The position numbers and the translations under genes are program-made. The notes under the pieces are model-generated. The model made no database searches. It had not been told where the DNA came from and saw only the letters and a list, made by a program, of their open reading frames with translations. Of a DNA stretch of 64,000 nt, positions 5,832-49,472 are shown one piece after another (position 1 is the first letter of the stretch; each line of letters opens with the position of its first letter). Where the stretch lies: the IMG/VR virus record IMGVR_UViG_3300049489_000540; one strand, given 5' to 3'. The stretch is from a virus (taxonomy: Duplodnaviria; Heunggongvirae; Uroviricota; Caudoviricetes).

Positions 5832-6266
5832 CTAATTATTTTTCTTAATACTTTTCAAAATCTTCATAGTGTCTTCTATTTCTTTTTTATCTTCAAAAAC
5901 CCACTGATCGCCGTAGGACATCTGTGTTGTGTACTTCACAGGAGAATATGGAACGATTAACATTCCTGTTATACAAAAATACTTAAAGTCAAATCCATCT
6001 TTTTCAAATCTCTTTTTGAAATCTTTTCTAAAACTACTCCAGTGTCTTTTTAAATGCTTGCATGCTTCAAGGCTGTCACGAAATTGAAGGTCATCGGTCC
6101 ATGGCACACCAATAAGATGACCATTAACCCGCATGAATAGGGCAATAGAATAAGATTTCTGCCGACCCAACAGATCGCTGTAGTGTTCATTTAGTTTTTG
6201 TGATTCAGCAAGAAGAGCTTGTAGCTCTTCATTCTGCTTCTCGATATCCTCGACATACTTACTCAT
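5832..6266 (-). CDS. family-1 small protein (conserved N-terminal LE-x3-EELQE-x-LA motif)
   Basis: N-term MSKYVEDIEKQNEELQALLAESQ from the internal Met at 6266; the longer ORF start at 6302 precedes the motif. Confidence 0.65.
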   Translation of the reverse strand: MSKYVEDIEKQNEELQALLAESQKLNEHYSDLLGRQKSYSIALFMRVNGHLIGVPWTDDLQFRDSLEACKHLKRHWSSFRKDFKKRFEKDGFDFKYFCITGMLIVPYSPVKYTTQMSYGDQWVFEDKKEIEDTMKILKSIKKNN

Positions 6267-6456
6267 GCGACCGTTCCTCGTCGCACATGTCTTGGATATC
6301 ACCTATACATGATCCACACCGAGTTCCAGCGGGACAATGCTTTTGAACATCTTTATAGGTTACACACTTATGTTTTCGAATGACCTCTTGAATATCAATA
6401 TATGGAATATTCAAACAGACACATAAACGAGGCACTTCTAGTGGTATCATGACCAC
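6259..6456 (-). CDS. small Cys-rich (CxxC-type, Zn-binding-like) protein
   Basis: 65 aa; CPAGTRCGSCIGDIQDMC; tightly packed between family-1 genes. Confidence 0.4.
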   Translation of the reverse strand: MVMIPLEVPRLCVCLNIPYIDIQEVIRKHKCVTYKDVQKHCPAGTRCGSCIGDIQDMCDEERSHE

Positions 6457-6472
6457 TAGATTATATCATAAA

Positions 6473-6880
6473 TTATCTTTTATCTAATGAGTGTTCGAAA
6501 AATTCTGGCTCTTTTTCTAAGTAGCCCGCCTCTTTTATGGCATATACGACCGCATCACGAATATCACCTACATAGCGTCCAGTTTTCGTCCGTCTGTCTG
6601 TAAACGGTTTGCCTTCCTCATACTCAGCACCATACAATATCTGCCACGCTTTTCCCATGCGGTGGATAACACACAAACCGATAGATTTGGCGTTGTCGCC
6701 AGTATACATGCCCTTGGAATTATGATATTTCGCATACAAGTAGATAACGGCGAACTTAGGTTCATTTTTTAAATTATAAATCGCCGCCACCAGGCTGATC
6801 TGGTGTTCGTAGGCTAGGACTTTTTCTTGGAGAATCTCACAACGTTCTTCAAGTTCTTCAATATACTTCTTAGTGTCCAT
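6473..6880 (-). CDS. family-1 small protein
   Basis: N-term MDTKKYIEELEERCEILQEKVLAYEHQ; overlaps the upstream gene's 3' end by 67 nt. Confidence 0.6.
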   Translation of the reverse strand: MDTKKYIEELEERCEILQEKVLAYEHQISLVAAIYNLKNEPKFAVIYLYAKYHNSKGMYTGDNAKSIGLCVIHRMGKAWQILYGAEYEEGKPFTDRRTKTGRYVGDIRDAVVYAIKEAGYLEKEPEFFEHSLDKR

Positions 6881-7482
6881 GGTGACGATTCTACAGGCTT
6901 TTCTGATTTTGCAACGAATTTTTTCATGTTGTCTATTACTTCATCTGTGAAAATTTCATTGAATTTCTTAAGATTTACAAGGTTTTTACCAAGTTCATCA
7001 TATGACATCGAATCAGCTTGTGAATTGGAAGTAATACTGATATTCCCATATGTCGTAAAAGAACCACTTGAATCTGAATACGCTAACAATCCTTTAAGCA
7101 TATTGTGATCTGTTTTAGCTTTGACATCTTTGGACGTTGTATATCCAAGTGCTGCAAGACCAGTATACTCCATAGCGTACTGGATAACTTCATCGTAGCT
7201 ACATTCTTTTACAACTTCTGTAGTATCTTTTGTATCATTTTGAAAATATATATGCCACTTTTTATCTGGATTTTTAATGGTACATGCGGTATTCTTATAA
7301 CCTAATCTACGAGAAGCATCACTAAAAAAGCTCATACTTATGGTAATTTCATCTACTGTTGTCTCGTCCGATTCATATATGGTATACACATGAACATGAA
7401 CAAACTTTCCAATATTGGCATACGATGCTAATTTTTCTTCTAGTTCTTCACAGCGTTTTTCCAACTCATGTACATATGTCAT
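6814..7482 (-). CDS. family-1 protein (222 aa)
   Basis: N-term MTYVHELEKRCEELEEKLASYANIG. Confidence 0.65.
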   Translation of the reverse strand: MTYVHELEKRCEELEEKLASYANIGKFVHVHVYTIYESDETTVDEITISMSFFSDASRRLGYKNTACTIKNPDKKWHIYFQNDTKDTTEVVKECSYDEVIQYAMEYTGLAALGYTTSKDVKAKTDHNMLKGLLAYSDSSGSFTTYGNISITSNSQADSMSYDELGKNLVNLKKFNEIFTDEVIDNMKKFVAKSEKPVESSPWTLRSILKNLKNVVRFSKKKS

Positions 7483-7838
7483 CGTAGTATCTCCACCTTA
7501 TAGGTAATGCCCGTCATGTGCATTATATCTAATATTTTTTCAATATAATACTGCACGGGTTGATTGTCTTTTATATCTTTTTCCACCTGACCAAATGCAT
7601 CCGTTGAGAATACCCATTTCCTATTGCTTTTTGCCAATGAAGCCAAATACAAACTATCATCCAGAGCGGCTTCGTGTCCCATCATAAAGCTGATATCTTT
7701 TACTTTATTATTATGAACTTTACATACGAAACTAAATGTTACTTTTTTATAAACTTCTAATAAACGCTCTGTGCATGCAAGCTGCTCTTGAAGCTCTTCG
7801 ATGTTCTTTTCCAATGATGCCGTATACGAAATACTCAT
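7479..7838 (-). CDS. family-1 small protein
   Basis: N-term MSISYTASLEKNIEELQEQLACTERLL; ATGA overlap with upstream gene. Confidence 0.65.
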   Translation of the reverse strand: MSISYTASLEKNIEELQEQLACTERLLEVYKKVTFSFVCKVHNNKVKDISFMMGHEAALDDSLYLASLAKSNRKWVFSTDAFGQVEKDIKDNQPVQYYIEKILDIMHMTGITYKVEILR

Positions 7839-8170
7839 GCTTTAAAAGAATATCTAACCTTGATGCCACGCAAGTTATAGGATTCTAAAATCTTCTCTAC
7901 AACATCTTGGATAGTCAGCCTCCTATCATAATACTTATCTTTTTTACTGGTCATGGTCCACACCCAAACAGGCTTTTCATCAAGTGTCGTATCAATAATG
8001 GTAAATAGCGGCTCTATATGACTTTCAAACAACGACATAGTTAATTCACATCTATATACCTTGCCGCTTTTTGTGATAACAGCAGAAAACATGGAACGCA
8101 ACGAAGCCGCTTCCATAAGCTGCTCTTGTAATTCCTCGCAGCGTTTTTCAAGCTCCGTCACATAGCTCAT
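7835..8170 (-). CDS. family-1 small protein
   Basis: N-term MSYVTELEKRCEELQEQLMEAASLRS; ATGA overlap. Confidence 0.65.
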   Translation of the reverse strand: MSYVTELEKRCEELQEQLMEAASLRSMFSAVITKSGKVYRCELTMSLFESHIEPLFTIIDTTLDEKPVWVWTMTSKKDKYYDRRLTIQDVVEKILESYNLRGIKVRYSFKA

Positions 8171-12081: not shown

Positions 12082-12510
12082 TTAGATGCCACCCTTGACC
12101 ATATCAGCGCAAATCTCTAAAGCCATGTCGTATGTCAGCTTATACTTGGTTCTTTTCATCGTCCATGCCTCAAAAATGCCAGTCGGATATAGGAAGATTT
12201 TCCGTTGCATGACCAATTCGCTGATTTCCGACATATGTACTTCATTTAAGTTTTCGTCTTCATTGATTTTAAGATACTCGTAAATATCAGAACCCATTAA
12301 AACATTAAATTCGCCTGGATTGAATGCGAAGAATTCAATCAAATGATGTGTTAGAATCTCGGTATCAAGAAAACGTTTATGGGCGATGATCATGGTAGCC
12401 AAATAATCTGTATCTGGAACACCATCTCTATCAGACAGACTAAAATCTTTCCGCCGCCGCCTATGAACAGCTTCAATTTCTTTTTTCAACTTCTTGTGTA
12501 TCAGGTCCAT
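12082..12510 (-). CDS. hypothetical protein
   Basis: 142-aa ORF upstream of rIIA, same strand. Confidence 0.5.
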   Translation of the reverse strand: MDLIHKKLKKEIEAVHRRRRKDFSLSDRDGVPDTDYLATMIIAHKRFLDTEILTHHLIEFFAFNPGEFNVLMGSDIYEYLKINEDENLNEVHMSEISELVMQRKIFLYPTGIFEAWTMKRTKYKLTYDMALEICADMVKGGI

Positions 12511-12932
12511 AAGTATTTTCTCAGTGCTATGAGTCGAGTGAGTTTTTCGTTTTCTATATCATAAGTTTCATACATACCCTTTTTTTGAAACTCAGGATAT
12601 TCCTTTTTCCACCAATCATATAGTGCCATGATTTCTTTTAAATCATTATTTTCTTTTGTAAAACTAACCTCGTCACCAGGAATGGTCGCATCATTCATGT
12701 CACGGAACGGTGGGTTATTATGCCACTCCCCCTCTACAAATTCGACCAGTATGGCGAAACTCGCATGTAGTAATGCATAGTCACGATCACAGAAACCAGG
12801 CTCAAGTGTCGGCACTTTTATAGTATGGTGACTTTCAAACCCCATGATGATGTCTTGTAATTCCTCGCAACGAATTTCCAATTCTTTTATATACAAATCC
12901 TTATTCATGCGACTGACAAGCATATCAGCCAC
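12501..12932 (-). CDS. family-1 protein (motif slightly internal)
   Basis: ...DLYIKELEIRCEELQDIIMGFESHH near N-terminus. Confidence 0.55.
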   Translation of the reverse strand: MADMLVSRMNKDLYIKELEIRCEELQDIIMGFESHHTIKVPTLEPGFCDRDYALLHASFAILVEFVEGEWHNNPPFRDMNDATIPGDEVSFTKENNDLKEIMALYDWWKKEYPEFQKKGMYETYDIENEKLTRLIALRKYLWT

Positions 12933-13904: not shown

Positions 13905-14373
13905 TCAAATAGTCGCTTAATGTGTCATGAGATTGGTGGTCAATGTAACCATATGGATGGTAGCCTTGAAGCTTTTGTAAATTGACGCTCAATCCAGTGA
14001 AGTCAGCAACGACTTCCTTTACGAGCCGATACTGGCGATTATTTTCAACATCGCTTATTTCTGGAGTATCATTCATATGACTGATGATACTAGTCACAAC
14101 ATAAGAAAGCTTGGAATCCCACGATTCACATGTGTCTGGACCCCAGCCAAATTCACCACATGTAAGGGTAAATTCTCTGTCTTTTCCCTTGGTCTTGAAC
14201 GAAACATATCCGTCTTGCTCGACACTCATGGAAATGGAATGTACGGAGCTAGAATTTGTTTCAAAAACATTCTTTCTTATAACGGTCTTCATATATGCGT
14301 CCTTTGTAGATAGGATAATAGCACAAGTTTCGGGAAAGTAAACTACTTTTCGCTTAGACGCTTTTCGACCCAT
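13810..14373 (-). CDS. hypothetical protein
   Basis: 187-aa ORF; 3' end overlaps the radical-SAM ORF start region so one of the two boundaries is uncertain. Confidence 0.45.
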   Translation of the reverse strand: MGRKASKRKVVYFPETCAIILSTKDAYMKTVIRKNVFETNSSSVHSISMSVEQDGYVSFKTKGKDREFTLTCGEFGWGPDTCESWDSKLSYVVTSIISHMNDTPEISDVENNRQYRLVKEVVADFTGLSVNLQKLQGYHPYGYIDHQSHDTLSDYLSEGKTDEDFKNDIGELIFNRKYTIVIDNDNH

Positions 14374-14615
14374 GCCATAGCGTCTTTTTTGCTTTTAAAA
14401 TCACTAACTGTCTTACCATCATCAATTTGCATTGTTAAGACGGCTCTCCAGGTTGATGCCTTTATTTTATTAACAAAGGCTACTTTGATTTTATAGATAC
14501 CAAAGTACCACAAGCCATCACCTTCATGCCACTGTAAGTACCAGCGTTCCGTGGTGGCTAGCCGCTCTTGCAATTCCTCGTTATGTTTTTCCAATTCTTC
14601 GCTATATTTTCCCAT
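14343..14615 (-). CDS. family-1 small protein
   Basis: N-term MGKYSEELEKHNEELQERLATTERWYLQW. Confidence 0.65.
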   Translation of the reverse strand: MGKYSEELEKHNEELQERLATTERWYLQWHEGDGLWYFGIYKIKVAFVNKIKASTWRAVLTMQIDDGKTVSDFKSKKDAMAWVEKRLSEK

Positions 14616-17777: not shown

Positions 17778-18267
17778 GGCTACGGTGCCTACCTATGTTC
17801 ATGAATTGGAGCAGCGAGTTGACGAATTGGAAAATTTGTTAGGTCATCTTTCAAAAAGACACGAAGACTTACAAAATCGATATGCTCTATTAGACGAGTA
17901 TTCAAAGCAATGGTGTGCGTTTCTAAAAGCCGATAATTCATATATAAATTACACACAATTTGAATATCATACAATAAAGGCGGCTAGTTTATGTAATATG
18001 CTGCGAAAGCTCGGTTGTTGGCGAAAGAAAAGTGAGACATTAGCTTTAACCATCGGTAAACGGGGTGTGCCATGTTGGCATGTTATATTTGTGAAAGTGA
18101 GAGATAAAAAAACACGCGACATATGGACATATGAGTTAACTATATTCGGTGATAAAGATGTTACGCCATTACCTAGAAAATATGTAAAAACCGGTGAGGT
18201 ATCATGGAGACAAATTATAGCATGGGCTAAAAAACGTTGGTTAAATCGAGACGGAGTATTACCATGA
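17776..18267 (+). CDS. family-1 protein
   Basis: N-term MATVPTYVHELEQRVDELENLL; ATGA overlap with next gene at 18264-18267. Confidence 0.65.
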   Translation: MATVPTYVHELEQRVDELENLLGHLSKRHEDLQNRYALLDEYSKQWCAFLKADNSYINYTQFEYHTIKAASLCNMLRKLGCWRKKSETLALTIGKRGVPCWHVIFVKVRDKKTRDIWTYELTIFGDKDVTPLPRKYVKTGEVSWRQIIAWAKKRWLNRDGVLP

Positions 18268-18614
18268 CCTACACACATGATCTTGAAAAGCATGTCGAAG
18301 AGTTACAAGAAAAGCTAGCAGAGGCTGAATTGTATATATCGTCAGTTAAAAATTTACATATTCGTTTAAAACCATCTAGTTTCGCATACGGTACAAAAGA
18401 AATTATTGGATATAAATTTATGATTGGACGATTTGAAGTTGGATCTATCTGCCAACATAATAACAAGTCTAAGAGATGGTTTGGAAATTTATATGTTGGA
18501 CAACGATTCTTAGAACTAGGTGGCGGCGCGGTGTATGGTCGTGGTCACAACACACCACAAGAAGCTATGAACGAGCTTGAACAACTGCTATCGTTCAATC
18601 CTTCAGAAGCTTGA
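18264..18614 (+). CDS. family-1 small protein
   Basis: N-term MTYTHDLEKHVEELQEKLAEAELYIS; ATG at 18264 overlaps previous TGA. Confidence 0.7.
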   Translation: MTYTHDLEKHVEELQEKLAEAELYISSVKNLHIRLKPSSFAYGTKEIIGYKFMIGRFEVGSICQHNNKSKRWFGNLYVGQRFLELGGGAVYGRGHNTPQEAMNELEQLLSFNPSEA

Positions 18615-18867
18615 AAAATTCAGTCAACTCTCTGATTTCGCGTTCTTCGCTATGATCACCAGAATCAACCCATTCGATAGTATGGGCTATTTCAGCCACC
18701 TTGCGCATATGATCAACAAATTTTTGCCGCATATCTAGATGCTCTTTCGTATAGCCAGGCGACCAATCACCTTTTTCGGGATTTCTAAAATTGGCTATTT
18801 CATGATCCATTTCGTCACACAATTCCATGACTTTGAAAGATTTATAGTCGTAGTGTCCACCGCTCAT
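18595..18867 (-). CDS. hypothetical acidic protein
   Basis: 90-aa ORF, ATGA overlap with the upstream family-1 gene. Confidence 0.45.
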   Translation of the reverse strand: MSGGHYDYKSFKVMELCDEMDHEIANFRNPEKGDWSPGYTKEHLDMRQKFVDHMRKVAEIAHTIEWVDSGDHSEEREIRELTEFFKLLKD

Positions 18868-19154
18868 ACAAACTCCTTTTCGTATTTCTTTTTATATGTA
18901 TCTTTTACACTGAAAATTTCTTGCATGATTGTAAATGCAGCAAAATTCGCTTGTCTACGAGTTTTTATAAATTTTCCATCTATTAACGACATGGCGATAT
19001 TACAGTGAAATGTCCACGCATAGTCTGGATCTTTATCTAATCGTTCGCATAAATTGATATATGGATTGGACAATTTAGCAAGGGTCGTTTCCGCTTGAGT
19101 CAGTTTCTCTTGCAGTTCTTCAACATGCTGTTCAAGTGACTCGTTATATTTCAT
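18864..19154 (-). CDS. family-1 small protein
   Basis: N-term MKYNESLEQHVEELQEKLTQAETTLAKL. Confidence 0.65.
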   Translation of the reverse strand: MKYNESLEQHVEELQEKLTQAETTLAKLSNPYINLCERLDKDPDYAWTFHCNIAMSLIDGKFIKTRRQANFAAFTIMQEIFSVKDTYKKKYEKEFV

Positions 19155-19534
19155 TCTGGATTTTTCCTGACGAGATTAAGATACTCCAACAGAACAGACT
19201 CCAAAAATTCCGAAAAAGCTTCATAATTATCGGATGAAAGCGGCATATGGTAATGTCGAAGATTGGTCGCTGGTAACGGTGTTTTCCCCCAATATTCATC
19301 TACAACTTTTCTACAACCAATATTTTCAATATATTGAACAAATGGTACTATATATTTACCAGATAAATCTTTTTTCGCGTTTTTATGGTACTGGTCGGCA
19401 AAATACATGAGGATGAAATCGCGGACAAGTAGATTTGAAGCATGTGTAGATTCAACTTCCTTTTCCTTTTCAGCCAACCGCTCCATCAATTCTTCATTCT
19501 GCTTTTCTAACTCATGTGTATATTTTCTTTTCAT
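19151..19534 (-). CDS. family-1 small protein
   Basis: N-term MKRKYTHELEKQNEELMERLAEKEKEVE. Confidence 0.65.
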   Translation of the reverse strand: MKRKYTHELEKQNEELMERLAEKEKEVESTHASNLLVRDFILMYFADQYHKNAKKDLSGKYIVPFVQYIENIGCRKVVDEYWGKTPLPATNLRHYHMPLSSDNYEAFSEFLESVLLEYLNLVRKNPE

Positions 19535-22724: not shown

Positions 22725-23153
22725 ATGGCATCATACGCACAAGGATTAGAAGAGCAAATTGAGGTTTTACAAGAGAAACTTGCTAACTCTGAAATGACTA
22801 CGCAAGTTATTGCTAAGATGCTTCTAAAATTACATGAAAGTCTTGTGCTAGCCAACAACGGAACACTTCGATTAAATGCCCCATTACAATTCAACAAACA
22901 AGAAGTAGATAATATTTTAAAACAAATGAATGATGAATGGAAACCGATTTTTAAAAAATCGTTCGATGATCTACAGAAAAAGATAGAAAAGAGTCCATCG
23001 CCACCTTGGAAGATGCCTTCTCCATCTCCATCAGTACCAACACAAGCAGAAATTGCGAAAAAATATTTTGATCACATATCCCAATACACAGCAGACAAAA
23101 ATGAACAATTTCGTAAGATAGAACAATTCCGTAAGATTTTCTTACAGCCCTAA
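22725..23153 (+). CDS. family-1 protein
   Basis: N-term MASYAQGLEEQIEVLQEKLANSE; start moved from the TTG at 22707 to the ATG at 22725 after the promoter, so possibly leaderless; ATG 22719 is the alternative. Confidence 0.55.
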   Translation: MASYAQGLEEQIEVLQEKLANSEMTTQVIAKMLLKLHESLVLANNGTLRLNAPLQFNKQEVDNILKQMNDEWKPIFKKSFDDLQKKIEKSPSPPWKMPSPSPSVPTQAEIAKKYFDHISQYTADKNEQFRKIEQFRKIFLQP

Positions 23154-23795: not shown

Positions 23796-24179
23796 ATGTC
23801 CTACGGCATGACTGTATATACTGAGGAATTGGAAAAGACCGTTAATGAGCTACAAGACAGGCTGACACAAGCTGCTTGTTGGGAGCCTCAGTGGGTGCGT
23901 GATAAGAAAAACCATTTAAAAGTAGAGCCATGGTTTCAAGATAAAGAATGCCGTATACATTATTACATGTCACAGTACATCATATATGCATATGTGATGC
24001 CCGTGGTCAGAGATAACGATAATGGAAAATCTGTATTAATATACGCAGCAAACACTATTCAAGCAGTTACTGATTTTCAGAAGTCACCCCATAGGCAATT
24101 TACGGACATGCTTCAAGCTATGTCGTGGGTGGAAACACATATGAAAACAATGTTTTCAGGTATTACAATACAGTATTAA
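23796..24179 (+). CDS. family-1 protein
   Basis: N-term MSYGMTVYTEELEKTVNELQDRLTQAACWEPQW. Confidence 0.65.
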   Translation: MSYGMTVYTEELEKTVNELQDRLTQAACWEPQWVRDKKNHLKVEPWFQDKECRIHYYMSQYIIYAYVMPVVRDNDNGKSVLIYAANTIQAVTDFQKSPHRQFTDMLQAMSWVETHMKTMFSGITIQY

Positions 24180-31051: not shown

Positions 31052-31494
31052 GTTGGCTCTTCTGGCATCCATAGGTAAATATTTTTTGGTGGTGTGATTG
31101 GAATTGGAGCCATATATCTAGATCCAGGGACTACCATGCAGGTTCTAGCATCCATAACCTGACACAATACTGCCATTTCTATGAAAAAACTAATTCTTAC
31201 AATTGTATGTGATTCCATGATAAATCGTAATGCAGATGATTCGTTTTTAAAGTATTCAAGTCCTTTAAGTTTGAGTAATTTTATCGTATCTCGAAATTCT
31301 GGTCGAGTCAAACTGAATGTTACACGGTTATATGTACGCACATCTTCCATTTCGACACGCATTGTGTATAAAAAACACCTATTACGCCTACGCCGGTTTT
31401 CATTATCCGAAATATTGATATATGTTAGAGCATCTGCAAGTAGCTCTTGCAACTCGGCATTCTGCTTCTCTAGTTGTTCACAATAGTTAGCCAA
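31048..31494 (-). CDS. family-1 protein
   Basis: N-term MANYCEQLEKQNAELQELLADALTYINIS. Confidence 0.65.
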   Translation of the reverse strand: MANYCEQLEKQNAELQELLADALTYINISDNENRRRRNRCFLYTMRVEMEDVRTYNRVTFSLTRPEFRDTIKLLKLKGLEYFKNESSALRFIMESHTIVRISFFIEMAVLCQVMDARTCMVVPGSRYMAPIPITPPKNIYLWMPEEPT

Positions 31495-31813
31495 GGAATA
31501 TTTTCCTTATAATTAACTTTTCCATAACTCGTTCAACATGATTTTTACATTGAGTCAATGATTTTCCTTTCGTTCCCCCTCTTATAGTACCGGCATTCAA
31601 ATCTTTGGTTTTTAATGGTATACCATATACAATAGTGAAGCTATCTCCATTCGGTAGGATTTCAGCCAGCGATATATCTAAAAATACATAGTGGTGATGA
31701 TTGGCAGTTTTTCTCCATATAGGCACATATTTGCTGTGTTTCGTCATTAATTCTGACAGTTGCTCCTGCAACTCGTCACACCGCTTCTCTAATTCATCAA
31801 CATATATACTCAT
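31487..31813 (-). CDS. family-1 protein
   Basis: N-term MSIYVDELEKRCDELQEQLSELMTKH. Confidence 0.65.
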   Translation of the reverse strand: MSIYVDELEKRCDELQEQLSELMTKHSKYVPIWRKTANHHHYVFLDISLAEILPNGDSFTIVYGIPLKTKDLNAGTIRGGTKGKSLTQCKNHVERVMEKLIIRKIFLG

Positions 31814-31821: not shown

Positions 31822-32304
31822 TTAAGTCATAACCACGATAGGATGCTTATTTCGTATTATCGAATACAGATGTTGAAAGACTCTATCTTCGTCAATAGTA
31901 TTTAAAAAATTATCAAGCAAATAAAGTTTATATACGACATTTATTCTTTGAAATTCCGAGAATGTTTTCATACCCGGTATAAGTCGTTTCATGCCAGGAA
32001 AAGCCGTACAGAGCAGCGTATTCTCTGGATCCGATGTGTATATGTTTTTTAGGGCTGTCGTATGCCCCTCTCGTCGCCCCATATTAAGTCGAATTGTAAA
32101 CAATTCGCGGACGCGATTTTGATCAATGGAATATGTAGTATTAGTGACAATCTTATCGATACTTTTACGCTTCATGTCGATAGCCATGCGCAGTATATTC
32201 TCAAGCGACGGTTCACGCCGTGCCAATTCAGCTTCTAGCTGCGCTTGTTTCTCTTCTAGCTGCTCAACATGCTGTTCAAGTTGTTCGATATACTTCACGA
32301 TCAA
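31822..32304 (-). CDS. family-1 protein
   Basis: N-term MIVKYIEQLEQHVEQLEEKQAQLEAELARREP. Confidence 0.65.
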   Translation of the reverse strand: MIVKYIEQLEQHVEQLEEKQAQLEAELARREPSLENILRMAIDMKRKSIDKIVTNTTYSIDQNRVRELFTIRLNMGRREGHTTALKNIYTSDPENTLLCTAFPGMKRLIPGMKTFSEFQRINVVYKLYLLDNFLNTIDEDRVFQHLYSIIRNKHPIVVMT

Positions 32305-32629
32305 GTCTCTCTAAGGTTTTAAAATAAAATTTTTGTACGGCATCCATCGCATCGTTGATACATTTATAATCGGATCTTATTGCGCCACCACACCAAAAAT
32401 TTGTTAAGTTACAACTATGTTCGTTCTCTATTACAACTGTAGCGATAAGATTTCCGACACTATTTGTAGCAATATATTTGACACCCATGGGATTTTCTTC
32501 TTTTCGCCAGTGGACACTAGACATCATTTGTCTATATGGCGACAAATCCTCGACCATTTTATGACTGATCGCCAATTCCTCTTCAAGATCATGAATATGC
32601 TGTTCGAGCGCGTTCACATATGACGGCAT
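32276..32629 (-). CDS. family-1 protein
   Basis: N-term MPSYVNALEQHIHDLEEELAISHKMVEDL. Confidence 0.65.
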   Translation of the reverse strand: MPSYVNALEQHIHDLEEELAISHKMVEDLSPYRQMMSSVHWRKEENPMGVKYIATNSVGNLIATVVIENEHSCNLTNFWCGGAIRSDYKCINDAMDAVQKFYFKTLERLDREVYRTT

Positions 32630-32740: not shown

Positions 32741-33172
32741 TTGCATAGTTATACTACCAATCTTGAGCAGCATGTTGAGCAACTTCAAGAGTTGCTTGCA
32801 GCCGAACAAGCTGCGCACGCTCATACTAAAGTCTGGTCTGATCAGCGTATTGTACTATCATATAAAGCGTACTATATAATCATAACGACACTTAAATCAC
32901 GCATACGATCCAGAGAACTAACACGGGCTGGCGCAAAAGAATGTTTCCGCAACAGAAGATTTACATTATCCGATCAATTGAAAATTATAGGAAGATATTA
33001 CGATGCCAATTTCTATGCCTTTATAAACAGTCTCGATGATGTCTTAAATATACAACTTTCAATATCCAATGTAAAACCCATAAAAAGTTCAGATGGAATT
33101 CATTATAATTACACCGTATCAAATTACACAGAAATATATCTCTACATGAAATCACATGCCGTATACACATGA
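32741..33172 (+). CDS. family-1 protein
   Basis: N-term MHSYTTNLEQHVEQLQELLAAEQAAHAHTKVW. Confidence 0.65.
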   Translation: MHSYTTNLEQHVEQLQELLAAEQAAHAHTKVWSDQRIVLSYKAYYIIITTLKSRIRSRELTRAGAKECFRNRRFTLSDQLKIIGRYYDANFYAFINSLDDVLNIQLSISNVKPIKSSDGIHYNYTVSNYTEIYLYMKSHAVYT

Positions 33173-33551
33173 TCTAGAAAAGCATATTGACGAGTTGCAA
33201 GAGTTGCTTGCAGCCGAACAAGAGCGTTCCAAGTGGCTGGAAGCCTGGGCGGATCAACGAGTCAATTATGGTAAGAAATTTTACTCGATGGTCGCAAACG
33301 TTGGCTACATGCACATACAATCCGCATATTTTACAAAATCCATTGCTAGGTCGTTTTTTTCGCCGGAATTACCACCACCAAGTAATCGTTTATCGACACT
33401 ATTGTCTACATATTTTACTGCTTCGATAAGTGAGAAAAATCTTGTGTCACTTCATTTGATTATAGGCTACCAGAAAATATTCCGTAGAGTTAACCGTCCT
33501 ACATATATTGAAACAAAATCAAAAGAAATATTGCTGTACAAGAAATTTTAA
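33156..33551 (+). CDS. family-1 protein
   Basis: N-term MPYTHDLEKHIDELQELLAAEQERSKWLEAW. Confidence 0.65.
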   Translation: MPYTHDLEKHIDELQELLAAEQERSKWLEAWADQRVNYGKKFYSMVANVGYMHIQSAYFTKSIARSFFSPELPPPSNRLSTLLSTYFTASISEKNLVSLHLIIGYQKIFRRVNRPTYIETKSKEILLYKKF

Positions 33552-33967
33552 GTCGATTGATTTATGTTTTTGATATGAGTATGAATAAGTTTTCTGGTGA
33601 GTTTCGGACACCAATGTATCATGGCAGCTTCGAATTCTTCCTCAATATACTTCTTCATTGAACGAATATCATGTGATTCAACTATGTCTTTCATTGGATT
33701 GATGCTGTTCAAATAAAAAGACTTAATTCTGCATTTACCAGTTCTTTTTTCTTCTGCTAAAATAGCAAATGTACAAACCGATGATTTGAAAATATGTTGA
33801 ACGCTTGGTCTTTCAAAGTCTGGTGATGGTGAAAATGTATCTGGTCCCACATACCATTCAGGTAGCAGCGCCCCAAGCAAGAAAGCATATTCTTCACATA
33901 ATGTGGACTTTTCTTGAAGTTCCTCAATATGACTTTCAAGTTGCTGAATATACGCATCTTTTGACAT
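33548..33967 (-). CDS. family-1 protein
   Basis: MSKDAYIQQLESHIEELQEKSTLCEEY from an internal Met; ATGA overlap with the convergent gene end. Confidence 0.55.
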   Translation of the reverse strand: MSKDAYIQQLESHIEELQEKSTLCEEYAFLLGALLPEWYVGPDTFSPSPDFERPSVQHIFKSSVCTFAILAEEKRTGKCRIKSFYLNSINPMKDIVESHDIRSMKKYIEEEFEAAMIHWCPKLTRKLIHTHIKNINQST

Positions 33968-38997: not shown

Positions 38998-39354
38998 CTA
39001 TTTTTTAGATGTATACGGTACAACAGTACGACCATGGGCATAATTCCTCAACATATCAATGTCATAAATGGACCCACAAGGATTACAACGGTCTTTAACT
39101 GACTTATATAGTCTGCTACTGCTATATGGCGTTGGCGACGATAATGGAACCACATAAACAACGTCCAGCATCGGAACAACCACCAAATCAGCAGTAATAT
39201 TCAAAGCAGCTTCTCTAGAAACATTACCATCACAAATAACAACGAATCGTGTATTGTTTTGTAAATCTTCAACTGTCTTTTGTTGAATAGCAAGCTGCTC
39301 TTGCAGTTCCTCGATGTGTAATTCCAATTGGCGGGTATAGGATTTATGCTGCAT
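38998..39354 (-). CDS. family-1 protein
   Basis: MQHKSYTRQLELHIEELQEQLAIQQKTVEDL from an internal Met; 11-nt overlap with upstream gene. Confidence 0.55.
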   Translation of the reverse strand: MQHKSYTRQLELHIEELQEQLAIQQKTVEDLQNNTRFVVICDGNVSREAALNITADLVVVPMLDVVYVVPLSSPTPYSSSRLYKSVKDRCNPCGSIYDIDMLRNYAHGRTVVPYTSKK

Positions 39355-39667
39355 ATTTAGGTCCAAATAGCACTTCGACATGCGCTTTCGCCTCTTCAAT
39401 CGAAGTAAAAAATTTCTGCACAGGAGGACTCATATCAACATGATATTTACTGTCATCGGTTATTGATTGCCGTATGGTAGCTAAACAGATACCGTTGATC
39501 ATATATTTTGTGTACCAACTGAAAATTGCTCTTGGTGGCTGTGCAGCATCTTCCCATCGCGGAACCAATCGTTGTAGTGCTTCAACTTTAGCTTCCGATA
39601 CTGCAAGCTGCTCTTGCAGTTCTTCAATGTGCTGTTCTAGGTCCAACACATAACTCACAAAACACAT
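39344..39667 (-). CDS. family-1 protein
   Basis: N-term MCFVSYVLDLEQHIEELQEQLAVSEAKVEALQRL. Confidence 0.65.
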   Translation of the reverse strand: MCFVSYVLDLEQHIEELQEQLAVSEAKVEALQRLVPRWEDAAQPPRAIFSWYTKYMINGICLATIRQSITDDSKYHVDMSPPVQKFFTSIEEAKAHVEVLFGPKYAA

Positions 39668-40062
39668 CCTTTGAATAACACGATTTCTTTAAATGTTTCT
39701 TGCATGTACACGGTCCCATCTTCATCTTTTGCCACGCGAGTAAACCCTTGAACACGGATACACGCATGTGCAATCATGAATCCTTGTTGTATGTTTTCTG
39801 CATGCGTCACAAACATATACCATGGGAGATAGTTTGGCAATTCTGGCATATCAACTGTAAATTTACGCTTAATAAGATCATGGGCTACGGATCTTGTTAT
39901 CTCTTCACGCAATCCTGTTATTCCATGTTCTTTGGTGTAATTAATATGAAGTTCGTAGTAATACCGTGGTCTATGCCACAGCCAATCATTGGTTGCTTGC
40001 TCTTTAGCAAGCAACTCTTGTAGCTGCTCAATATGCTCTTCAAGTTGCTTCGAGTAGCTCAT
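39655..40062 (-). CDS. family-1 protein
   Basis: N-term MSYSKQLEEHIEQLQELLAKEQATNDWLW. Confidence 0.65.
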   Translation of the reverse strand: MSYSKQLEEHIEQLQELLAKEQATNDWLWHRPRYYYELHINYTKEHGITGLREEITRSVAHDLIKRKFTVDMPELPNYLPWYMFVTHAENIQQGFMIAHACIRVQGFTRVAKDEDGTVYMQETFKEIVLFKGCVL

Positions 40063-40424
40063 CGGTGTAGCTCATACATAATTTTTATATTTGTTGTTTT
40101 TGCACTCATTCCGTCAAACTCGTCATGGTTATGGTAAGGAAGAGCAACCAATGTGAGCATGAATGTTCTTATATGCTTTTTTGGAAACATAGCCATGAGA
40201 AGGAAATCTATTCCATTCTCTTTAATACTTTTCAGCATGCGAGTCATATGACTTCGAACGATGAATCGCCGTTGAGATTCTTCATCCGTTTCATGAAGCA
40301 TAACATAGTAAAAGTGTAATCTTTGCCTTTCTTTCCAGGCAATGAATGCCCGAGCCTCACTAAGCAACTCTATAAGCTGCTCGTTCTGCTTTTCCAGAGA
40401 TTCAGTGTAGGCTTTAGAGTTCAC
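40059..40424 (-). CDS. family-1 protein
   Basis: N-term MNSKAYTESLEKQNEQLIELLSEARAFIAWKE; ATGA overlap. Confidence 0.65.
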   Translation of the reverse strand: MNSKAYTESLEKQNEQLIELLSEARAFIAWKERQRLHFYYVMLHETDEESQRRFIVRSHMTRMLKSIKENGIDFLLMAMFPKKHIRTFMLTLVALPYHNHDEFDGMSAKTTNIKIMYELHR

Positions 40425-40709: not shown

Positions 40710-41072
40710 TTATATGTATTTTTCTTTGTACTCTTTATGAACCATATCCATAGCCTTGAAAATTTTCTCCATATGTTGTTTCACTTCGTCAAATGTTCTG
40801 AAATCACTAAATTTAAACTCCCATTTATCATCCGAAAATACTTTATATAAGTCTTCCGAGTAAGAAATACAAAATTTACTACTGGCATGTTGTCGAGTCA
40901 CAGAACAGAGAATTATTGTGGACATATATAATTTTGCTTCAAATACATTGTGTCGTGGTTTTGGATTTATGAACCACTCTGGTGTCCACCTTTCGGCTAC
41001 TGCCAGGCGCTCCGTCAAATCCTCATTCCGCCTTTCTAATTCGGCTACATACTGTTGCATGGGGGTCGGCAT
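40710..41072 (-). CDS. family-1 protein
   Basis: N-term MPTPMQQYVAELERRNEDLTERLAVAERWTPEW. Confidence 0.6.
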   Translation of the reverse strand: MPTPMQQYVAELERRNEDLTERLAVAERWTPEWFINPKPRHNVFEAKLYMSTIILCSVTRQHASSKFCISYSEDLYKVFSDDKWEFKFSDFRTFDEVKQHMEKIFKAMDMVHKEYKEKYI

Positions 41073-45158: not shown

Positions 45159-45394
45159 ATCTGCTCCAATGCTGCATAAGCACCTTCAAGCTGCGAATTG
45201 GTACATGAATTTCTTTTAAACCTAGTCTTGACCGTATCTCTAACATTCATATAGAAATTGGTTCTGACATTGGCTCTGACATGAAACCAGACCTTACCTT
45301 GAAGATTATTTCTGACATTATTCTTGATATAAGACCATGTACTGTCTCTGACATCACTTCTAATATCTTTTGTAATACCTAGCATAATACTCAT
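45155..45394 (-). CDS. family-2 mini-protein
   Basis: ends TNSQLEGAYAALEQI; ATGA overlap. Confidence 0.65.
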   Translation of the reverse strand: MSIMLGITKDIRSDVRDSTWSYIKNNVRNNLQGKVWFHVRANVRTNFYMNVRDTVKTRFKRNSCTNSQLEGAYAALEQI

Positions 45395-46476: not shown

Positions 46477-46535
46477 AAAGTCAACAATGACTTTTTAAAG
46501 TACCTATGAATGTAAACACATGCAGCTAAAGGTGT

Positions 46536-47770: not shown

Positions 47771-48010
47771 CTACTGAATGACTGATAGAATCTCGTTCCA
47801 CTGATTATCGGGAATTCGTAGTTGCTTTCCAGCGTGTCGTTCAATTTCTTTAACCAGTGATCGCAACAAGGACACATCGCTGTAACCTGGACCAATATCA
47901 GGATTTGCGTCATCATCGCTTTTCTTATATTTGAGAGCGACTTTGAGCATTGCTAATTCCGTAGGAGTTAGTGCATCATCGTCTTCAACTTCTCCTGCCG
48001 ACATAATCAT
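47771..48010 (-). CDS. small acidic protein
   Basis: 79-aa ORF. Confidence 0.4.
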   Translation of the reverse strand: MIMSAGEVEDDDALTPTELAMLKVALKYKKSDDDANPDIGPGYSDVSLLRSLVKEIERHAGKQLRIPDNQWNEILSVIQ

Positions 48011-48116
48011 GCTCCTTGAGCCACCACTCTACAGACCCCATGCTATTTTTCAAGTGCGTATTTTCGCTTGCTTTTTTAAAGACTTCTCTAACATATAGGG
48101 CTGAAGGGGCACTATC

Positions 48117-48356
48117 ATGGCTACCAATAAGCATGAGCGGAATTACCTGAGATTTGTCGAAGCTCAACAGAACGAGGTCATCAATGAACGGAACCGATTC
48201 CAGACCCAGCTAACGCTGTCGATTTACGATCTGGAAACCATCATCTGCCTTCTGCCGCCCGGCAGACTCAGTGCCAAACTCCAAGGTGCGCTCAAGCATG
48301 CTGAACAACAGTTCAAAATACGAGATGTCGATTTCGGTGATTTGAAAGAGGACTGA
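48117..48356 (+). CDS. hypothetical small protein
   Basis: 79 aa; stop overlaps the next gene's ATG at 48356. Confidence 0.45.
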   Translation: MATNKHERNYLRFVEAQQNEVINERNRFQTQLTLSIYDLETIICLLPPGRLSAKLQGALKHAEQQFKIRDVDFGDLKED

Positions 48357-48640
48357 TGAAGTCCTATACGCAGCAGCTTGAGGAACATATTGAGCAGCTA
48401 CAACAGTCGCTTGCCAAGACGCAAGCACATTCGTTACAGTGGTATAAGGTTTCACCACGACTATACGAATTCCGTGTAGGTGCATATGCCATTGGTAAAG
48501 TCGAAAAATACAATGATCATTGGGTAGCTATGATCATTGCAAAAGGATTCAATAACGGATCGGGTGGATTCTGCGTACATCAGACGCCGGAAGCCGCCAA
48601 GATGGATGTAGAGGAAACCATATTCAGTACCATACCATGA
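48356..48640 (+). CDS. family-1 protein
   Basis: N-term MKSYTQQLEEHIEQLQQSLAKTQAHSLQWYKV. Confidence 0.65.
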   Translation: MKSYTQQLEEHIEQLQQSLAKTQAHSLQWYKVSPRLYEFRVGAYAIGKVEKYNDHWVAMIIAKGFNNGSGGFCVHQTPEAAKMDVEETIFSTIP

Positions 48641-49149
48641 GCGAATACACCACAAAACTAGAGAACCATATCGAGCAACTGGAAGAGCAGCTTGCCGATG
48701 CTGAACGGAAACTTGCCAAGTTTCCATCCATCAATAAACGAGATATCAATCCCGAGTATATGACCAGCCCCATGTATCCATTCTTGCAAAAGCTGCATGC
48801 GCTGCCAGGAATCATGGTTGATTGGGTACATCCACATGCACCTATTATTGAAAGTTTTGCAATTAAAATAGGTTTTACAGCAATACCATGTTATGACAAT
48901 ATTGGTCTATGGATCTTTCTGCGTGCCATAAACCAGAGATATTGGAATTATGCTGATGATTGGATGTTAGAATCAGCCATAGATGATGTCAGTATCCGCA
49001 CGCGGTTCGTGTTCCTTTCGAAAAAACCATATAAAGAAGCCAAATCCGAATTAGATAATCTTGGACGGCAAATAGATTTCATAGTCAATCATCCGAATTT
49101 ATCTCAAGATTTTGGCATCACCAAAGAACGATTACATGAACCCGTATGA
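48637..49149 (+). CDS. family-1 protein
   Basis: N-term MSEYTTKLENHIEQLEEQLADAERKLAKF; ATGA overlap. Confidence 0.65.
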   Translation: MSEYTTKLENHIEQLEEQLADAERKLAKFPSINKRDINPEYMTSPMYPFLQKLHALPGIMVDWVHPHAPIIESFAIKIGFTAIPCYDNIGLWIFLRAINQRYWNYADDWMLESAIDDVSIRTRFVFLSKKPYKEAKSELDNLGRQIDFIVNHPNLSQDFGITKERLHEPV

Positions 49150-49472
49150 GCAGCTACACACAACAACTAGAAGAACACATCGAGCAGCTACAAGAGAAAC
49201 TTACCCGTGCTGAAACATTACTGCATGCATCTGTTGTCTTAACATGGTATCGACTGCCTAAAAATGAAAACCGATGGGATTTGATGATCATAGGAATTCC
49301 AAATACGCATATTGCGACAATATTACGATTTCAAGATTATTATCAATTATCATGGGCAGGAACAAACCCAATATATATTCCATCGAATTATCCGTCGCTT
49401 AAACAAGCACAAGACGAAGCACGGGAAATTCTCAAGGTACGCGCCGAGTCATACATTAAAATCGCATTGTGA
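49146..49472 (+). CDS. family-1 protein
   Basis: N-term MSSYTQQLEEHIEQLQEKLTRAETLLHAS; ATGA overlap. Confidence 0.65.
   Translation: MSSYTQQLEEHIEQLQEKLTRAETLLHASVVLTWYRLPKNENRWDLMIIGIPNTHIATILRFQDYYQLSWAGTNPIYIPSNYPSLKQAQDEAREILKVRAESYIKIAL

What the first reader, a model, noticed from the sequence alone, without database searches (positions are those of the whole stretch)
5832..49472. About 35 paralogous small genes share a 20-aa N-terminal leucine-zipper-like motif but have unrelated C-termini
At least 35 ORFs in eight clusters on both strands (5.8-8.2 kb, 12.5, 14.3, 17.8-19.5, 22.7-25.3, 29.3-34.0, 38.3-41.1, 48.4-49.5 kb) start with the pattern M-(S/P)-x-Y-(T/V)-x-x-LE-(K/Q)-(H/Q/R)-(V/I/C/N)-EELQE-(K/Q)-LA. 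A Trp usually follows 8-12 residues later (WYLQW, KPEW, VPRW, KWKPKW, WLEAW). The next 70-200 residues have no detectable similarity between copies. The hydrophobic positions L/I/L/L are spaced a-d-a-d, as expected for a short amphipathic coiled coil. Synonymous codon positions differ between copies, so conservation is at the protein level. These genes take up about 15 kb, close to a quarter of the window. I do not recognise a described family with this signature. The pattern fits a shared docking or targeting helix fused to a diversified effector set.
Basis: seen in the sequence. Interest (0 to 1): 0.9.

Follow-up and report, generated by a model that had tools for sequence, protein, structure and literature searches.

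The report
Expanded phage family sharing N-terminal helix
An uncultured large phage carries 35 diverged copies of an undescribed small-protein family that all start with the same 20-residue acidic, leucine-zipper-like helix; the helix is joined to two recognisable C-terminal parts and about 15 unrelated ones, and the family's function is unknown.

Summary
Exactly 35 ORFs (90-222 aa, 13.7 kb, 21% of the window) between 5832 and 49472 begin with M-x-x-Y-[TVI]-x-x-L-E-x-x-[N/IV/C]-E-E-L-Q-E-x-L-A. Conservation is at the protein level, not the DNA level.

The claim of "unrelated C-termini" is only partly right. Fifteen copies share one collinear domain (WxPxW, five strands, a C-terminal "F-x-S/T-x-x-E-A-K-x-x-V-E" helix; confident AlphaFold model). 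Five share a second domain. Fifteen match neither.

The window is phage DNA (rIIA, rIIB, a Ro-like protein, a tRNA). The family is absent from Pfam, PHROGs, NCBIfam, PDB and GenBank phages. It does have about 190 further clusters in metagenomes, always near-N-terminal and often in tandem arrays. Syntenic orthologues in a related phage give dN/dS of about 0.2.

The heptad pattern, with Asn at a central "a" position, and a weak resemblance to the T7 gp5.9 coiled coil point to a short parallel dimerisation zipper. Conserved acidic surface residues suggest it also binds a common partner.

My best reading is a modular zipper/handle on diversified binding domains of early accessory proteins. The function is untested. 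A T4-type capsid-targeting leader remains a live rival.

The parts
5832..6266 (-). family member, 144 aa; helix class Q-N; orphan C-terminus
   Evidence: no match to type A or B
6473..6880 (-). family member, 135 aa; class R-C; orphan C-terminus; orthologue in L138
   Evidence: C-part 49% identical to L138_8135
6814..7482 (-). family member, 222 aa; class R-C; orphan C-terminus; orthologue in L138
   Evidence: 34% identical to L138_7554
7479..7838 (-). family member, 119 aa; class N-I; orphan C-terminus; orthologue in L138
   Evidence: 36% identical to L138_7183
7835..8170 (-). family member, 111 aa; class R-C; orphan C-terminus; orthologue in L138; same strand as rIIB and downstream of it
   Evidence: 26% identical to L138_6842
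12501..12908 (-). family member, 135 aa; class R-C; orphan acidic C-terminus; orthologue in L138
   Evidence: 53% identical to L138_2042; dN/dS 0.23
14343..14615 (-). family member, 90 aa; type A; class H-N; the copy modelled with AlphaFold
   Evidence: AlphaFold pLDDT 85.8: helix 2-23, five strands, helix 76-89; leave-one-out score 31.7 bits; orthologue P0017
17776..18267 (+). family member, 163 aa; class R-V; orphan basic C-terminus
18264..18614 (+). family member, 116 aa; type A; class H-V
   Evidence: leave-one-out score 8.4 bits, above all shuffles
18864..19154 (-). family member, 96 aa; class H-V; orphan C-terminus
19151..19534 (-). family member, 127 aa; class Q-N; orphan C-terminus
22725..23153 (+). 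family member, 142 aa; class Q-I; orphan C-terminus
23808..24179 (+). family member, 123 aa; type A; class T-V
   Evidence: 22.5 bits
24182..24709 (+). family member, 175 aa; class Q-N; orphan C-terminus
24706..25260 (+). family member, 184 aa; class H-V; orphan C-terminus
29291..29635 (-). family member, 114 aa; type A; class Q-N; orthologue L140_7433
   Evidence: (19.8 bits)
29628..29942 (-). family member, 104 aa (TTG start); type A; class R-C; paralogue of 31487-31813
   Evidence: 65% identical to L140_6862; dN/dS 0.22
30740..31051 (-). family member, 103 aa; type A; class R-C
   Evidence: 87% identical to L140_5722; dN/dS 0.17
31048..31494 (-). family member, 148 aa (TTG start); type B; class Q-N
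   Evidence: orthologue L140_4870
31487..31813 (-). family member, 108 aa; type A; class R-C
   Evidence: 21.8 bits
31822..32298 (-). family member, 158 aa (GTG start); class H-V; C-part matches phrog_2586 (function unknown)
   Evidence: phrog_2586 at E 1.6e-6
32276..32629 (-). family member, 117 aa; type A with weak support; class H-I
   Evidence: leave-one-out score 4.4 bits, with 7 of 200 shuffles as high
32741..33172 (+). family member, 143 aa (TTG start); type B; class H-V
33156..33551 (+). family member, 131 aa; type B; class H-I
33548..33967 (-). family member, 139 aa; aligned with type A but not supported by the leave-one-out test; class H-I
   Evidence: -0.2 bits
38336..38626 (-). family member, 96 aa; type A; class Q-N
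   Evidence: 30.4 bits
38623..38958 (-). family member, 111 aa; type A; class H-V
   Evidence: 11.8 bits
38998..39354 (-). family member, 118 aa; class H-I; orphan C-terminus
39344..39667 (-). family member, 107 aa; type A; class H-I
   Evidence: 18.3 bits
39655..40062 (-). family member, 135 aa; type B; class H-I
40059..40424 (-). family member, 121 aa (GTG start); type B; class Q-N; modelled with low confidence
   Evidence: AlphaFold pLDDT 64.5
40710..41060 (-). family member, 116 aa; type A; class R-N
   Evidence: 11.5 bits
48356..48640 (+). family member, 94 aa; type A; class H-I
   Evidence: 7.7 bits, above all shuffles
48637..49149 (+). family member, 170 aa; class H-I; orphan C-terminus
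49146..49472 (+). family member, 108 aa; type A; class H-I
   Evidence: 10.0 bits
8848..11991 (-). context: rIIA (9844-11991) and rIIB (8848-9786), on the same strand as the 5.8-8.2 kb family cluster and directly upstream of it
   Evidence: PHROG rIIA at E 1.7e-60; the same order in related contig L138, with Pfam Phage_T4_rIIB

Best explanation
SHOWN. This is a phage-specific, undescribed family of small proteins that has expanded to 35 diverged copies in this genome. Every copy begins, 2-7 residues after the start codon, with a helix of about 20 residues.

INFERRED. The helix is a short, acidic, parallel leucine-zipper-like coiled coil: a = T/V/I5, d = L8, a = N/I/V/C12, d = L15, a = L19. It acts as a portable module. 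It dimerises the protein and, through its conserved acidic outer face (E9, E13, E14, E17, E23), probably contacts one common partner.

The sequence after the helix is the variable working part. In 15 copies it is one small domain with a WxPxW motif, five strands and a C-terminal helix (type A). In 5 copies it is a second domain (type B). In 15 copies it matches neither.

The genes lie in early-type accessory regions; one cluster runs on directly from rIIA-rIIB. I therefore read them as early host-interaction proteins (takeover or anti-defence) whose different C-terminal parts bind different targets. Pairing preference may be set by the coupled g/a residues: Q-N, H-I/V, R-C.
For: Family and copy number. 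Protein-level conservation.

The genes are real and under constraint. A related metagenomic phage (L138, L140) has syntenic orthologues with C-parts 25-87% identical and dN/dS of 0.17-0.23.

The family is wider than this genome. There are 192 clusters at E<=1e-3 among 1.84 billion representatives, nearly all 87-140 aa and matched over the full length. The conserved Tyr sits at residue 3-5 in 120 of 137 relatives. More distant contigs also carry tandem arrays: 7 in a row in L141 and 4 in L142.

Modularity. The same helix sits on type A, on type B and on orphan C-termini. Profile-profile comparison finds no relation between these. One copy's C-part hits phrog_2586. One relative has a membrane-like tail. 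Helix class is independent of C-domain type.

Coiled coil. There is a single a/d hydrophobic stripe. Asn occupies the central 'a' position in 67% of relatives. From established knowledge of GCN4-type zippers, that is the signature of parallel dimers. The g11-a12 coupling has chi-square 104. The best PDB sequence match is the parallel coiled coil of T7 gp5.9, in the same register (PMC9836394). The helix has a mean net charge of -3.4 and the remainder +2.6.

Structure: helix 2-23, five strands, helix 76-89, pLDDT 85.8.

Context: rIIA, rIIB, then five members, all on one strand.
Against: No dimer was modelled or measured. In type A the helix could simply pack on its own sheet, because the monomer model gives it pLDDT of about 84.

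Two and a half heptads is short for a stable zipper.

The gp5.9 resemblance is below significance in a database-wide search (E 0.087), and 0 of 35 copies hit the gp5.9-like PHROG.

Strong conservation at b, c and e positions is not explained by self-association alone.

Early expression is inferred from position only; sigma-70-like promoter matches are not above chance (59 found against 62 expected).

Confidence: 0.4

Rival explanations
1. Common-partner docking or targeting leader, as in the T4 capsid targeting sequence. The N-terminal helix binds one phage component, such as the scaffold or core. The diverse proteins are then packed into the head, perhaps trimmed by the prohead protease, and injected with the DNA as anti-defence proteins like T4 IPI*.
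For: The motif has a strict near-N-terminal position. Surface positions E9, E13, E14 and Q16 are conserved, which suggests one shared partner. Diverse C-termini and gain and loss of members between related phages resemble the variable T4 internal-protein set, which shares only a CTS (PMC3012670). Tyr at residue 4 and an aliphatic residue at 8 echo MKTYQEFIAE (the T4 CTS as I recall it, not checked here). An L-x-E site is present in 27 of 35 window copies. A gene inside the array (29935-30747) has a weak Gp23-type Pfam hit.
Against: The L-x-E site is not conserved in the wider family: E17 occurs in 29% of relatives. The motif is a 20-residue heptad helix, not a 10-residue leader. Conservation continues past the putative cut site (L19, A20, E23, WxPxW). 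Thirty-five packaged species would be unprecedented. One cluster is co-linear with rIIA/rIIB. No head, scaffold or protease gene is in the window, and the Gp23 hit is below cut-off and unsupported by PDB or tblastn.
Confidence: 0.2
2. A gp5.9-like DNA-mimic coiled coil. The acidic dimeric helix imitates DNA and blocks DNA-binding host enzymes, as T7 gp5.9 blocks RecBCD and MukBEF. The variable C-domains supply target specificity.
For: The best PDB hit of the family profile is gp5.9, in the same a/d register over six core positions. Pairwise hhalign gives probability 92%. One of 43 relatives hits the gp5.9-like phrog_9014 at E 0.0024. The helix is acidic, with net charge -3.4. gp5.9 is a parallel coiled-coil DNA mimic (PMC9836394; PMC7617805).
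Against: The database-wide E-value is only 0.087. None of the 35 copies hits phrog_9014. The whole proteins are not acidic: median pI is 6.4 and the C-parts are net basic. The helix is half the length of the gp5.9 coil. The same sequence signature also occurs in unrelated bacterial PAS-sensor linkers, so it may simply be a favourable zipper sequence.
Confidence: 0.12
3. There is no separate module. The helix is just the best-conserved structural element of one fast-evolving small fold, and the 'orphan' C-termini are the same domain diverged beyond recognition.
For: Fifteen copies are collinear from end to end. The monomer model is confident over the helix. Paralogues are very old: identity is 20-30% even within type A.
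Against: Type B has different predicted secondary structure (low confidence) and shows no profile similarity to type A (probability 0.1%). Orphans range from 96 to 222 aa. One carries a domain found in another PHROG and a relative carries a membrane-like tail. Asn at a core helix position fits poorly with packing on a sheet.
Confidence: 0.15
4. A DNA- or RNA-level element (promoter, terminator, recombination site) or a wrong reading frame produces the repeated motif.
For: The motif region shows up as a dispersed DNA repeat family at 60-82% identity.
Against: Third codon positions are the most variable and second positions the least. The upstream DNA is not conserved. The motif is always in frame with a 90-222-aa ORF directly after a start codon. 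Orthologues are under purifying selection. Full-length protein homologues exist elsewhere.
Confidence: 0.01

Closest known systems
T7 gp5.9 (RecBCD / MukBEF inhibitor; PDB 8b1r, 9gmb)
   Same: A small phage early protein. Its helix 'YIDSLERENDSLKNQLMEAD' aligns in register with the family consensus 'Y-v-e-e-L-E-k-q-N-e-e-L-q-e-k-L-a-e-A-e'. It has Asn at the central 'a' position, an acidic surface, and forms a parallel coiled-coil dimer (PMC9836394).
   Different: gp5.9 is 52 aa, has a beta-strand before the helix and nothing after it, and has pI 4.0. The family proteins are 90-222 aa, start with the helix, carry a folded and often basic C-part, and have median pI 6.4. The sequence match is sub-threshold (E 0.087; 0 of 35 copies hit phrog_9014).
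T4 internal proteins (IPI, IPII, IPIII) with the capsid targeting sequence
   Same: A set of small phage proteins that share only an N-terminal leader and otherwise differ. The set varies between related phages, and at least one member (IPI*) is an anti-restriction protein (PMC3012670). Tyr at residue 4 and an aliphatic residue at 8 are common to both (from my recollection of the T4 CTS).
   Different: The CTS is about 10 residues and is cut off at (L/I)-x-E. Here the conserved part is a heptad helix of about 23 residues, with no family-wide cleavage site. There are 35 copies rather than 3-5, more than half of them share a C-terminal domain, and virion location is unknown.
bZIP / GCN4-type leucine zippers
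   Same: Leu at d positions, beta-branched residues or Asn at a positions, charged e/g positions, and g-a coupling that could set pairing specificity.
   Different: There is no basic DNA-binding region, because the helix starts at residue 2-5 and is acidic. It has only about 2.5 heptads. Pfam bZIP_1 scores 15.8 bits against a cut-off of 27.6.
N-terminal coiled-coil linker 'VYQxELExQNEEL' of bacterial PAS-domain sensor proteins
   Same: The core sequence Y-x-x-E-L-E-x-Q-N-E-E-L is almost the same. It was found by the genome scan.
   Different: In the sensors the motif lies inside large signalling proteins, 20-500 residues from the N-terminus and ahead of PAS domains. The family profile finds no homology beyond the helix (0 hits).

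Membership tests
Any described protein family (Pfam-A, PHROGs v4, NCBIfam 20) | A match to a curated family model above its threshold | tested here: not met
   Pfam on 10 window members and on 43 family members: nothing above cut-off. PHROGs on all 35 and on the 43: no shared family; the single hit is phrog_2586 to the C-part of one copy. NCBIfam: nothing.
T7 gp5.9-like RecBCD inhibitors (phrog_9014) | Significant sequence similarity to gp5.9 | tested here: not met
   PDB-wide hmmsearch gives E 0.087. phrog_9014 is hit by 0 of 35 window copies at E<=0.05 and by 1 of 43 relatives at E 0.0024. Pairwise hhalign gives probability 92%, but that comparison was chosen after the database search.
T7 gp5.9-like RecBCD inhibitors (phrog_9014) | A very small (about 50 aa), strongly acidic protein (pI about 4) made only of the coiled coil | tested here: not met
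   Lengths are 90-222 aa and median pI is 6.4. The helix has net charge -3.4 but the remainder +2.6.
T7 gp5.9-like RecBCD inhibitors (phrog_9014) | A parallel coiled-coil homodimer that binds RecBCD or MukBEF in place of DNA | not testable with these tools
   No multimer prediction or binding assay is available.
T4-type internal proteins with a capsid targeting sequence | An N-terminal leader of about 10 residues related to MKTYQEFIAE | tested here: inconclusive
   Met1, Tyr4 and an aliphatic residue at 8 agree. Ten residues are too few for a statistical test, and no T4 sequence was aligned here.
T4-type internal proteins with a capsid targeting sequence | A conserved prohead-protease site, (L/I)-x-E, at the end of the leader | tested here: inconclusive
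   L-x-E at motif positions 15-17 occurs in 27 of 35 window copies. In 137 relatives, position 17 is Glu in only 29%.
T4-type internal proteins with a capsid targeting sequence | Presence in the virion, and a gp21-type protease and scaffold in the same genome | not testable with these tools
   The window has no recognisable head module, and the rest of the 91-kb contig could not be fetched. The only hint is a sub-threshold Gp23 Pfam hit, which searches do not support.
bZIP transcription factors | A basic DNA-binding region directly N-terminal to the zipper | tested here: not met
   The helix begins at residue 2-7 and the N-terminus is acidic. bZIP_1 scores 15.8 bits against a cut-off of 27.6.
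Dimeric parallel coiled coil (structural class, not a homology family) | A 3-4 hydrophobic a/d repeat with Leu at d and Asn or beta-branched residues at a | tested here: met
   Positions 5 (I/V/T), 8 (L, 95%), 12 (N 67%, I/V 21%, C 4%), 15 (L, 98%) and 19 (L, 89%) in 137 relatives. The 35 window copies show the same pattern.
Dimeric parallel coiled coil (structural class, not a homology family) | Actual dimer formation through the helix | not testable with these tools
   Only monomer AlphaFold models were available.

The most novel reading that the evidence does not exclude
The family is a phage-encoded combinatorial zipper system. The three coupled g/a classes of the helix (Q-N, H-I/V, R-C) form a pairing code that sorts 35 different C-terminal binding domains into defined homo- and heterodimers. 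The shared acidic coiled coil works as a gp5.9-like DNA-mimic handle. Together they would make a large, evolvable repertoire of inhibitors aimed at different host DNA-binding defence or housekeeping complexes.
Probability: 0.1. Interest if true: 0.85.

Novelty: new variant of a known kind. Interest (0 to 1): 0.62.

Why it matters
A phage that spends about a fifth of a 64-kb stretch on one family, and keeps each diverged copy under purifying selection, is signalling that the family matters for infection. Yet the family is missing from Pfam, PHROGs, NCBIfam, PDB and all cultured phages.

It is a compact, well-defined target for anti-defence or host-takeover screens. The proteins are about 100 aa, there is one confident fold model, and there are about 190 natural variants.

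If the helix is a dimerisation or docking handle, it would be a natural example of modular 'one handle, many heads' design in phage accessory proteins. It would be comparable in logic to the T4 capsid-targeting leader, and could be reused as an engineering tag.

It would also extend the gp5.9 type of coiled-coil protein from a single small inhibitor to a diversified family.

Tried and rejected
- DNA-repeat, promoter or wrong-frame artefact: rejected by codon-position entropy, unconserved upstream DNA and only 60-82% DNA identity.
- Known domain: Pfam, PHROGs and NCBIfam all negative.
- Word-indexed protein search: it returned almost only the source contig and was too insensitive. The exhaustive HMMER search was what revealed the wider family.
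- IMG/VR scan with the back-translated motif: 16 single matches, nearly all chance. rIIA has no close relative in IMG/VR.
- GenBank phages: tblastn with a family member and with the consensus N-terminus found nothing.
- Sigma-70 promoter scan: not above chance.
- Type B structure: low confidence (pLDDT 64.5), so it was used only as weak evidence.
- Fetching the rest of the 91-kb contig to look for head or protease genes: failed; only short Logan contigs came back.
- Gp23-like hit of 29935-30747: not supported by PDB or tblastn.

Full report

A strict regular expression found 16 copies. An HMM built from those and run with all filters off against every stop-to-stop segment of the six frames found 35. 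A broader HMM from 127 family N-termini found the same 35 at E<=6.5e-5, with the next hit at E=1.5, so the count is exact and has a clean gap.

The first and last genes are 5832-6266(-) and 49146-49472(+). The back-translated DNA pattern has 17 matches, against 0 in 100 dinucleotide shuffles.

In each copy a start codon lies 2-7 codons before the conserved Tyr, and the ORF runs on for 90-222 aa. The 35 genes total 13,674 nt, which is 21% of the window.

2. PROTEIN OR DNA?

Across the 21 motif codons the entropy is 1.13, 0.82 and 1.50 bits at codon positions 1, 2 and 3. The 30 nt upstream are essentially unconserved at 1.76 bits. As DNA, the motif region is only 60-82% identical over 38-76 nt, and there are no long exact repeats. 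The conservation is therefore at the protein level, and the DNA-element rival is rejected.

3. ARE THE C-TERMINI UNRELATED?

Only partly. All-against-all BLASTP of the parts after the helix finds one clear pair (29628-29942 and 31487-31813, 43% identity) and otherwise nothing below E 0.003.

Alignment, however, shows that 15 copies are collinear: helix, W-x-P-x-W, a strand-rich stretch of about 40 residues, then a C-terminal helix 'F-x-[ST]-x-x-[EDQ]-A-[KM]-x-x-V-E'. In a leave-one-out test on the C-terminal part alone, 13 of the 15 score above all 200 shuffles. I call this type A.

AlphaFold2 on one type A member (14343-14615) with this alignment gives pLDDT 85.8 and pTM 0.64: helix 2-23, five strands, helix 76-89.

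Five further copies (31048, 32741, 33156, 39655, 40059) share a second pattern with extra invariant Tyr and Arg residues. Relatives from other contigs share it too. I call this type B. Its model is of low confidence (pLDDT 64.5), but it has a different order of secondary structure.

Profile-profile comparison finds no relation between types A and B (probability 0.1%). It also finds none between either type and the remaining 15 copies (best probability 14.9%).

One of those 15 (31822-32298) carries a C-part that matches phrog_2586, of unknown function, at E 1.6e-6. A Trp follows the motif within 20 residues in 17 of the 35 copies.

4. WHAT IS THE GENOME?

It is a phage. rIIA (9844-11991) scores E 1.7e-60 against PHROGs. 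rIIB, an HNH endonuclease, a Ro/TROVE-like RNA-binding protein, an SPFH protein and a tRNA-Leu are also present.

It has no near relative among 50,697 GenBank phages: only two 100-nt blastn matches, and rIIA at no more than 29% identity. It has none in IMG/VR either.

The five-member cluster at 5.8-8.2 kb follows rIIA, rIIB and one further ORF on the same strand.

5. IS THE FAMILY KNOWN, AND DOES IT EXIST ELSEWHERE?

Pfam, PHROGs and NCBIfam give nothing shared by the members. The PDB sequence search gives nothing significant. tblastn of a member and of the consensus N-terminus against GenBank phages gives nothing.

The word-indexed search found only the source, a 91,024-bp JGI contig. The exhaustive HMMER search of 1.84 billion cluster representatives, using the type A alignment, found 192 proteins at E<=1e-3 and 23 at E<=1e-10. 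Nearly all are 87-140 aa and match from end to end.

Their consensus is 'MSDYIKQLEEQNEELKQKLAxAExWxPxW ... FxTLEEAKxYVE'. The Tyr is at residue 3-5 in 120 of 137. All are unnamed and lie on short metagenomic contigs.

Two contigs from another metagenome (L138, L140) are syntenic with the window. L138 reads: member, member, rIIA, rIIB, four members. L140 holds at least 12 members. Individual paralogues have recognisable orthologues there, with C-parts 25-87% identical, and there is some gain and loss of members. dN/dS is 0.17, 0.22 and 0.23 for the three pairs in which dS is not saturated.

More distant contigs also carry tandem arrays. L141 has seven consecutive members, including one type B copy and one with a membrane-like tail. 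L142 has four.

6. ANATOMY OF THE HELIX

The hydrophobic positions are 5 (I/V/T), 8 (L), 12 (N, I/V or C), 15 (L) and 19 (L). This is a single a/d stripe of about 2.5 heptads. Among relatives, position 12 is Asn in 67%. From established knowledge of GCN4-type zippers, a core Asn favours parallel, in-register dimers and is a poor fit for packing against a sheet.

Positions 11 (g) and 12 (a) are tightly coupled as Q-N, H-I/V and R-C/V/I, with chi-square 104; this value is not corrected for relatedness. The three classes occur on type A, type B and orphan C-termini alike.

Outward-facing E9, E13, E14, Q16 and E23 are also strongly conserved. Self-association alone does not require that, so it hints at a shared partner. 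The helix carries a mean net charge of -3.4 and the rest of the protein +2.6. Median pI is 6.4.

7. NEAREST KNOWN THINGS

The best PDB sequence match of the family profile is the coiled coil of T7 gp5.9, at E 0.087. The a/d register is identical: 'ssYveeLEkqneeLqekLaeaerwvp' against 'QGYIDSLERENDSLKNQLMEADEYVA'. Pairwise hhalign gives probability 92%.

gp5.9 is a parallel coiled-coil dimer and a DNA mimic that blocks RecBCD and MukBEF (PMC9836394, PMC7617805). This is a lead, not membership. None of the 35 copies hits the gp5.9-like PHROG, and the proteins are neither tiny nor strongly acidic.

The genome-collection scan also turned up nearly the same core, 'VYQxELExQNEEL', as an internal linker before PAS domains in many bacterial sensor proteins. 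The motif may therefore simply be a good zipper sequence.

The T4 internal proteins share only a capsid-targeting leader and are otherwise diverse anti-defence proteins (PMC3012670). The logic is similar, and Tyr4 and an aliphatic residue at 8 coincide. No head or protease genes could be examined.

8. INTERPRETATION

Shown:
- It is a real, constrained, undescribed phage protein family.
- It has expanded to 35 copies here and forms arrays in related uncultured phages.
- It has a near-N-terminal conserved helix attached to at least three kinds of C-terminal sequence, and probably many more.

Inferred, moderate confidence: the helix is a portable parallel-zipper module for dimerisation, possibly also a docking surface for one common partner.

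Inferred, low confidence: the proteins are early host-interaction factors whose variable parts bind different targets.

Rivals, in order:
- a capsid-targeting or docking leader of the T4 type;
- the helix as a mere structural core of one fast-evolving fold;
- a gp5.9-like DNA-mimic handle.

The modular 'shared helix, diversified remainder' idea holds. The '35 unrelated C-termini' and the processing site do not hold as stated.

9. VERDICT

This is a genuine and unusual finding: a new protein family and a striking expansion. Its closest analogues in logic are known (T4 internal proteins, gp5.9), but it is a member of neither. Its function remains open and is readily testable.

Noticed in passing
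window 41461-46844 (+ then - strand), 50226-51401 (-), and traces at 36.7-37.3 kb: A second, unrelated multi-copy family of about 25 tandem genes of 79-105 aa. They carry internal short periodic repeats ('NVWDNV', 'NVRNTV', with 12-nt periodicity at 37120-37267). They end in a conserved '[TC]-D-S-Q-L-E-A-A-Y-x-A-L-E-Q-I' whose stop codon overlaps the next ATG (ATGA). Six members tested have no Pfam hit.
   Followed up: partly
window 29935-30747 (-): A 270-aa gene embedded in the family array and conserved at the same place in the related contig L140 (6057-6872). It has a sub-threshold Pfam hit to the T4-type major capsid protein Gp23 (E 0.0019, 18.1 bits against a cut-off of 24.4). Neither PDB phmmer nor tblastn against phages supports the hit.
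   Followed up: partly
whole window (composition, 2-kb windows): G+C content is strongly heterogeneous. It is 0.36-0.39 in the family-rich stretches, against 0.48-0.52 at rIIA/rIIB, 26-28 kb and 34-36 kb, and 0.53-0.55 over 54-64 kb.
   Followed up: no
Genome-contig loci L145-L264 (for example L184, L193, L227, L243): The core of the motif, 'VYQxELExQNEEL', recurs as an internal coiled-coil linker ahead of PAS-type regions in many bacterial sensor proteins. The family profile does not match them beyond the helix.
   Followed up: partly
window 31822-32298 (-): The C-terminal part of this family member (residues 54-99, 'GRREGHTTAL...') matches phrog_2586, a phage family of unknown function, at E 1.6e-6. 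This is the only member with an outside domain hit.
   Followed up: partly
L141 685-1140 (+): A family member in a distant metagenomic array has a hydrophobic, transmembrane-like segment ('PVCIIFLVVAIIAIIGTVSYGMYATV') in place of the type A domain.
   Followed up: no
window 27-2111 (+) and 4399-5814 (-): Two large ORFs with long Ser-rich low-complexity tracts (SSSKSSS..., SESxSQS...) and Cys/Trp/Tyr-rich repeated modules, next to a 751-aa ORF (2139-4394). None has a PHROG hit. They may be fibre or surface proteins.
   Followed up: no
window 51702-53006 (-): An HNH/homing-endonuclease-like ORF (PHROG E 3.4e-88) that contains five internal repeats of about 180 nt, 65-76% identical.
   Followed up: no
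window 61339-62839 (+): A Ro/TROVE-like RNA-binding protein gene (DUF2828; 39% identical to those of Aeromonas and Citrobacter phages), immediately followed by the only tRNA in the window, tRNA-Leu(TAA) at 62754-62839.
   Followed up: no
window 12957-13904 (-), 27040-27999 (-), 35626-36540 (+): Other annotated accessory genes lie between the family clusters: a radical-SAM/Fe-S oxidoreductase-like protein (phrog_16999, E 3.9e-45), an SPFH/Band 7 protein (E 6.4e-23) and a DUF6745 protein (E 1.7e-27).
   Followed up: no
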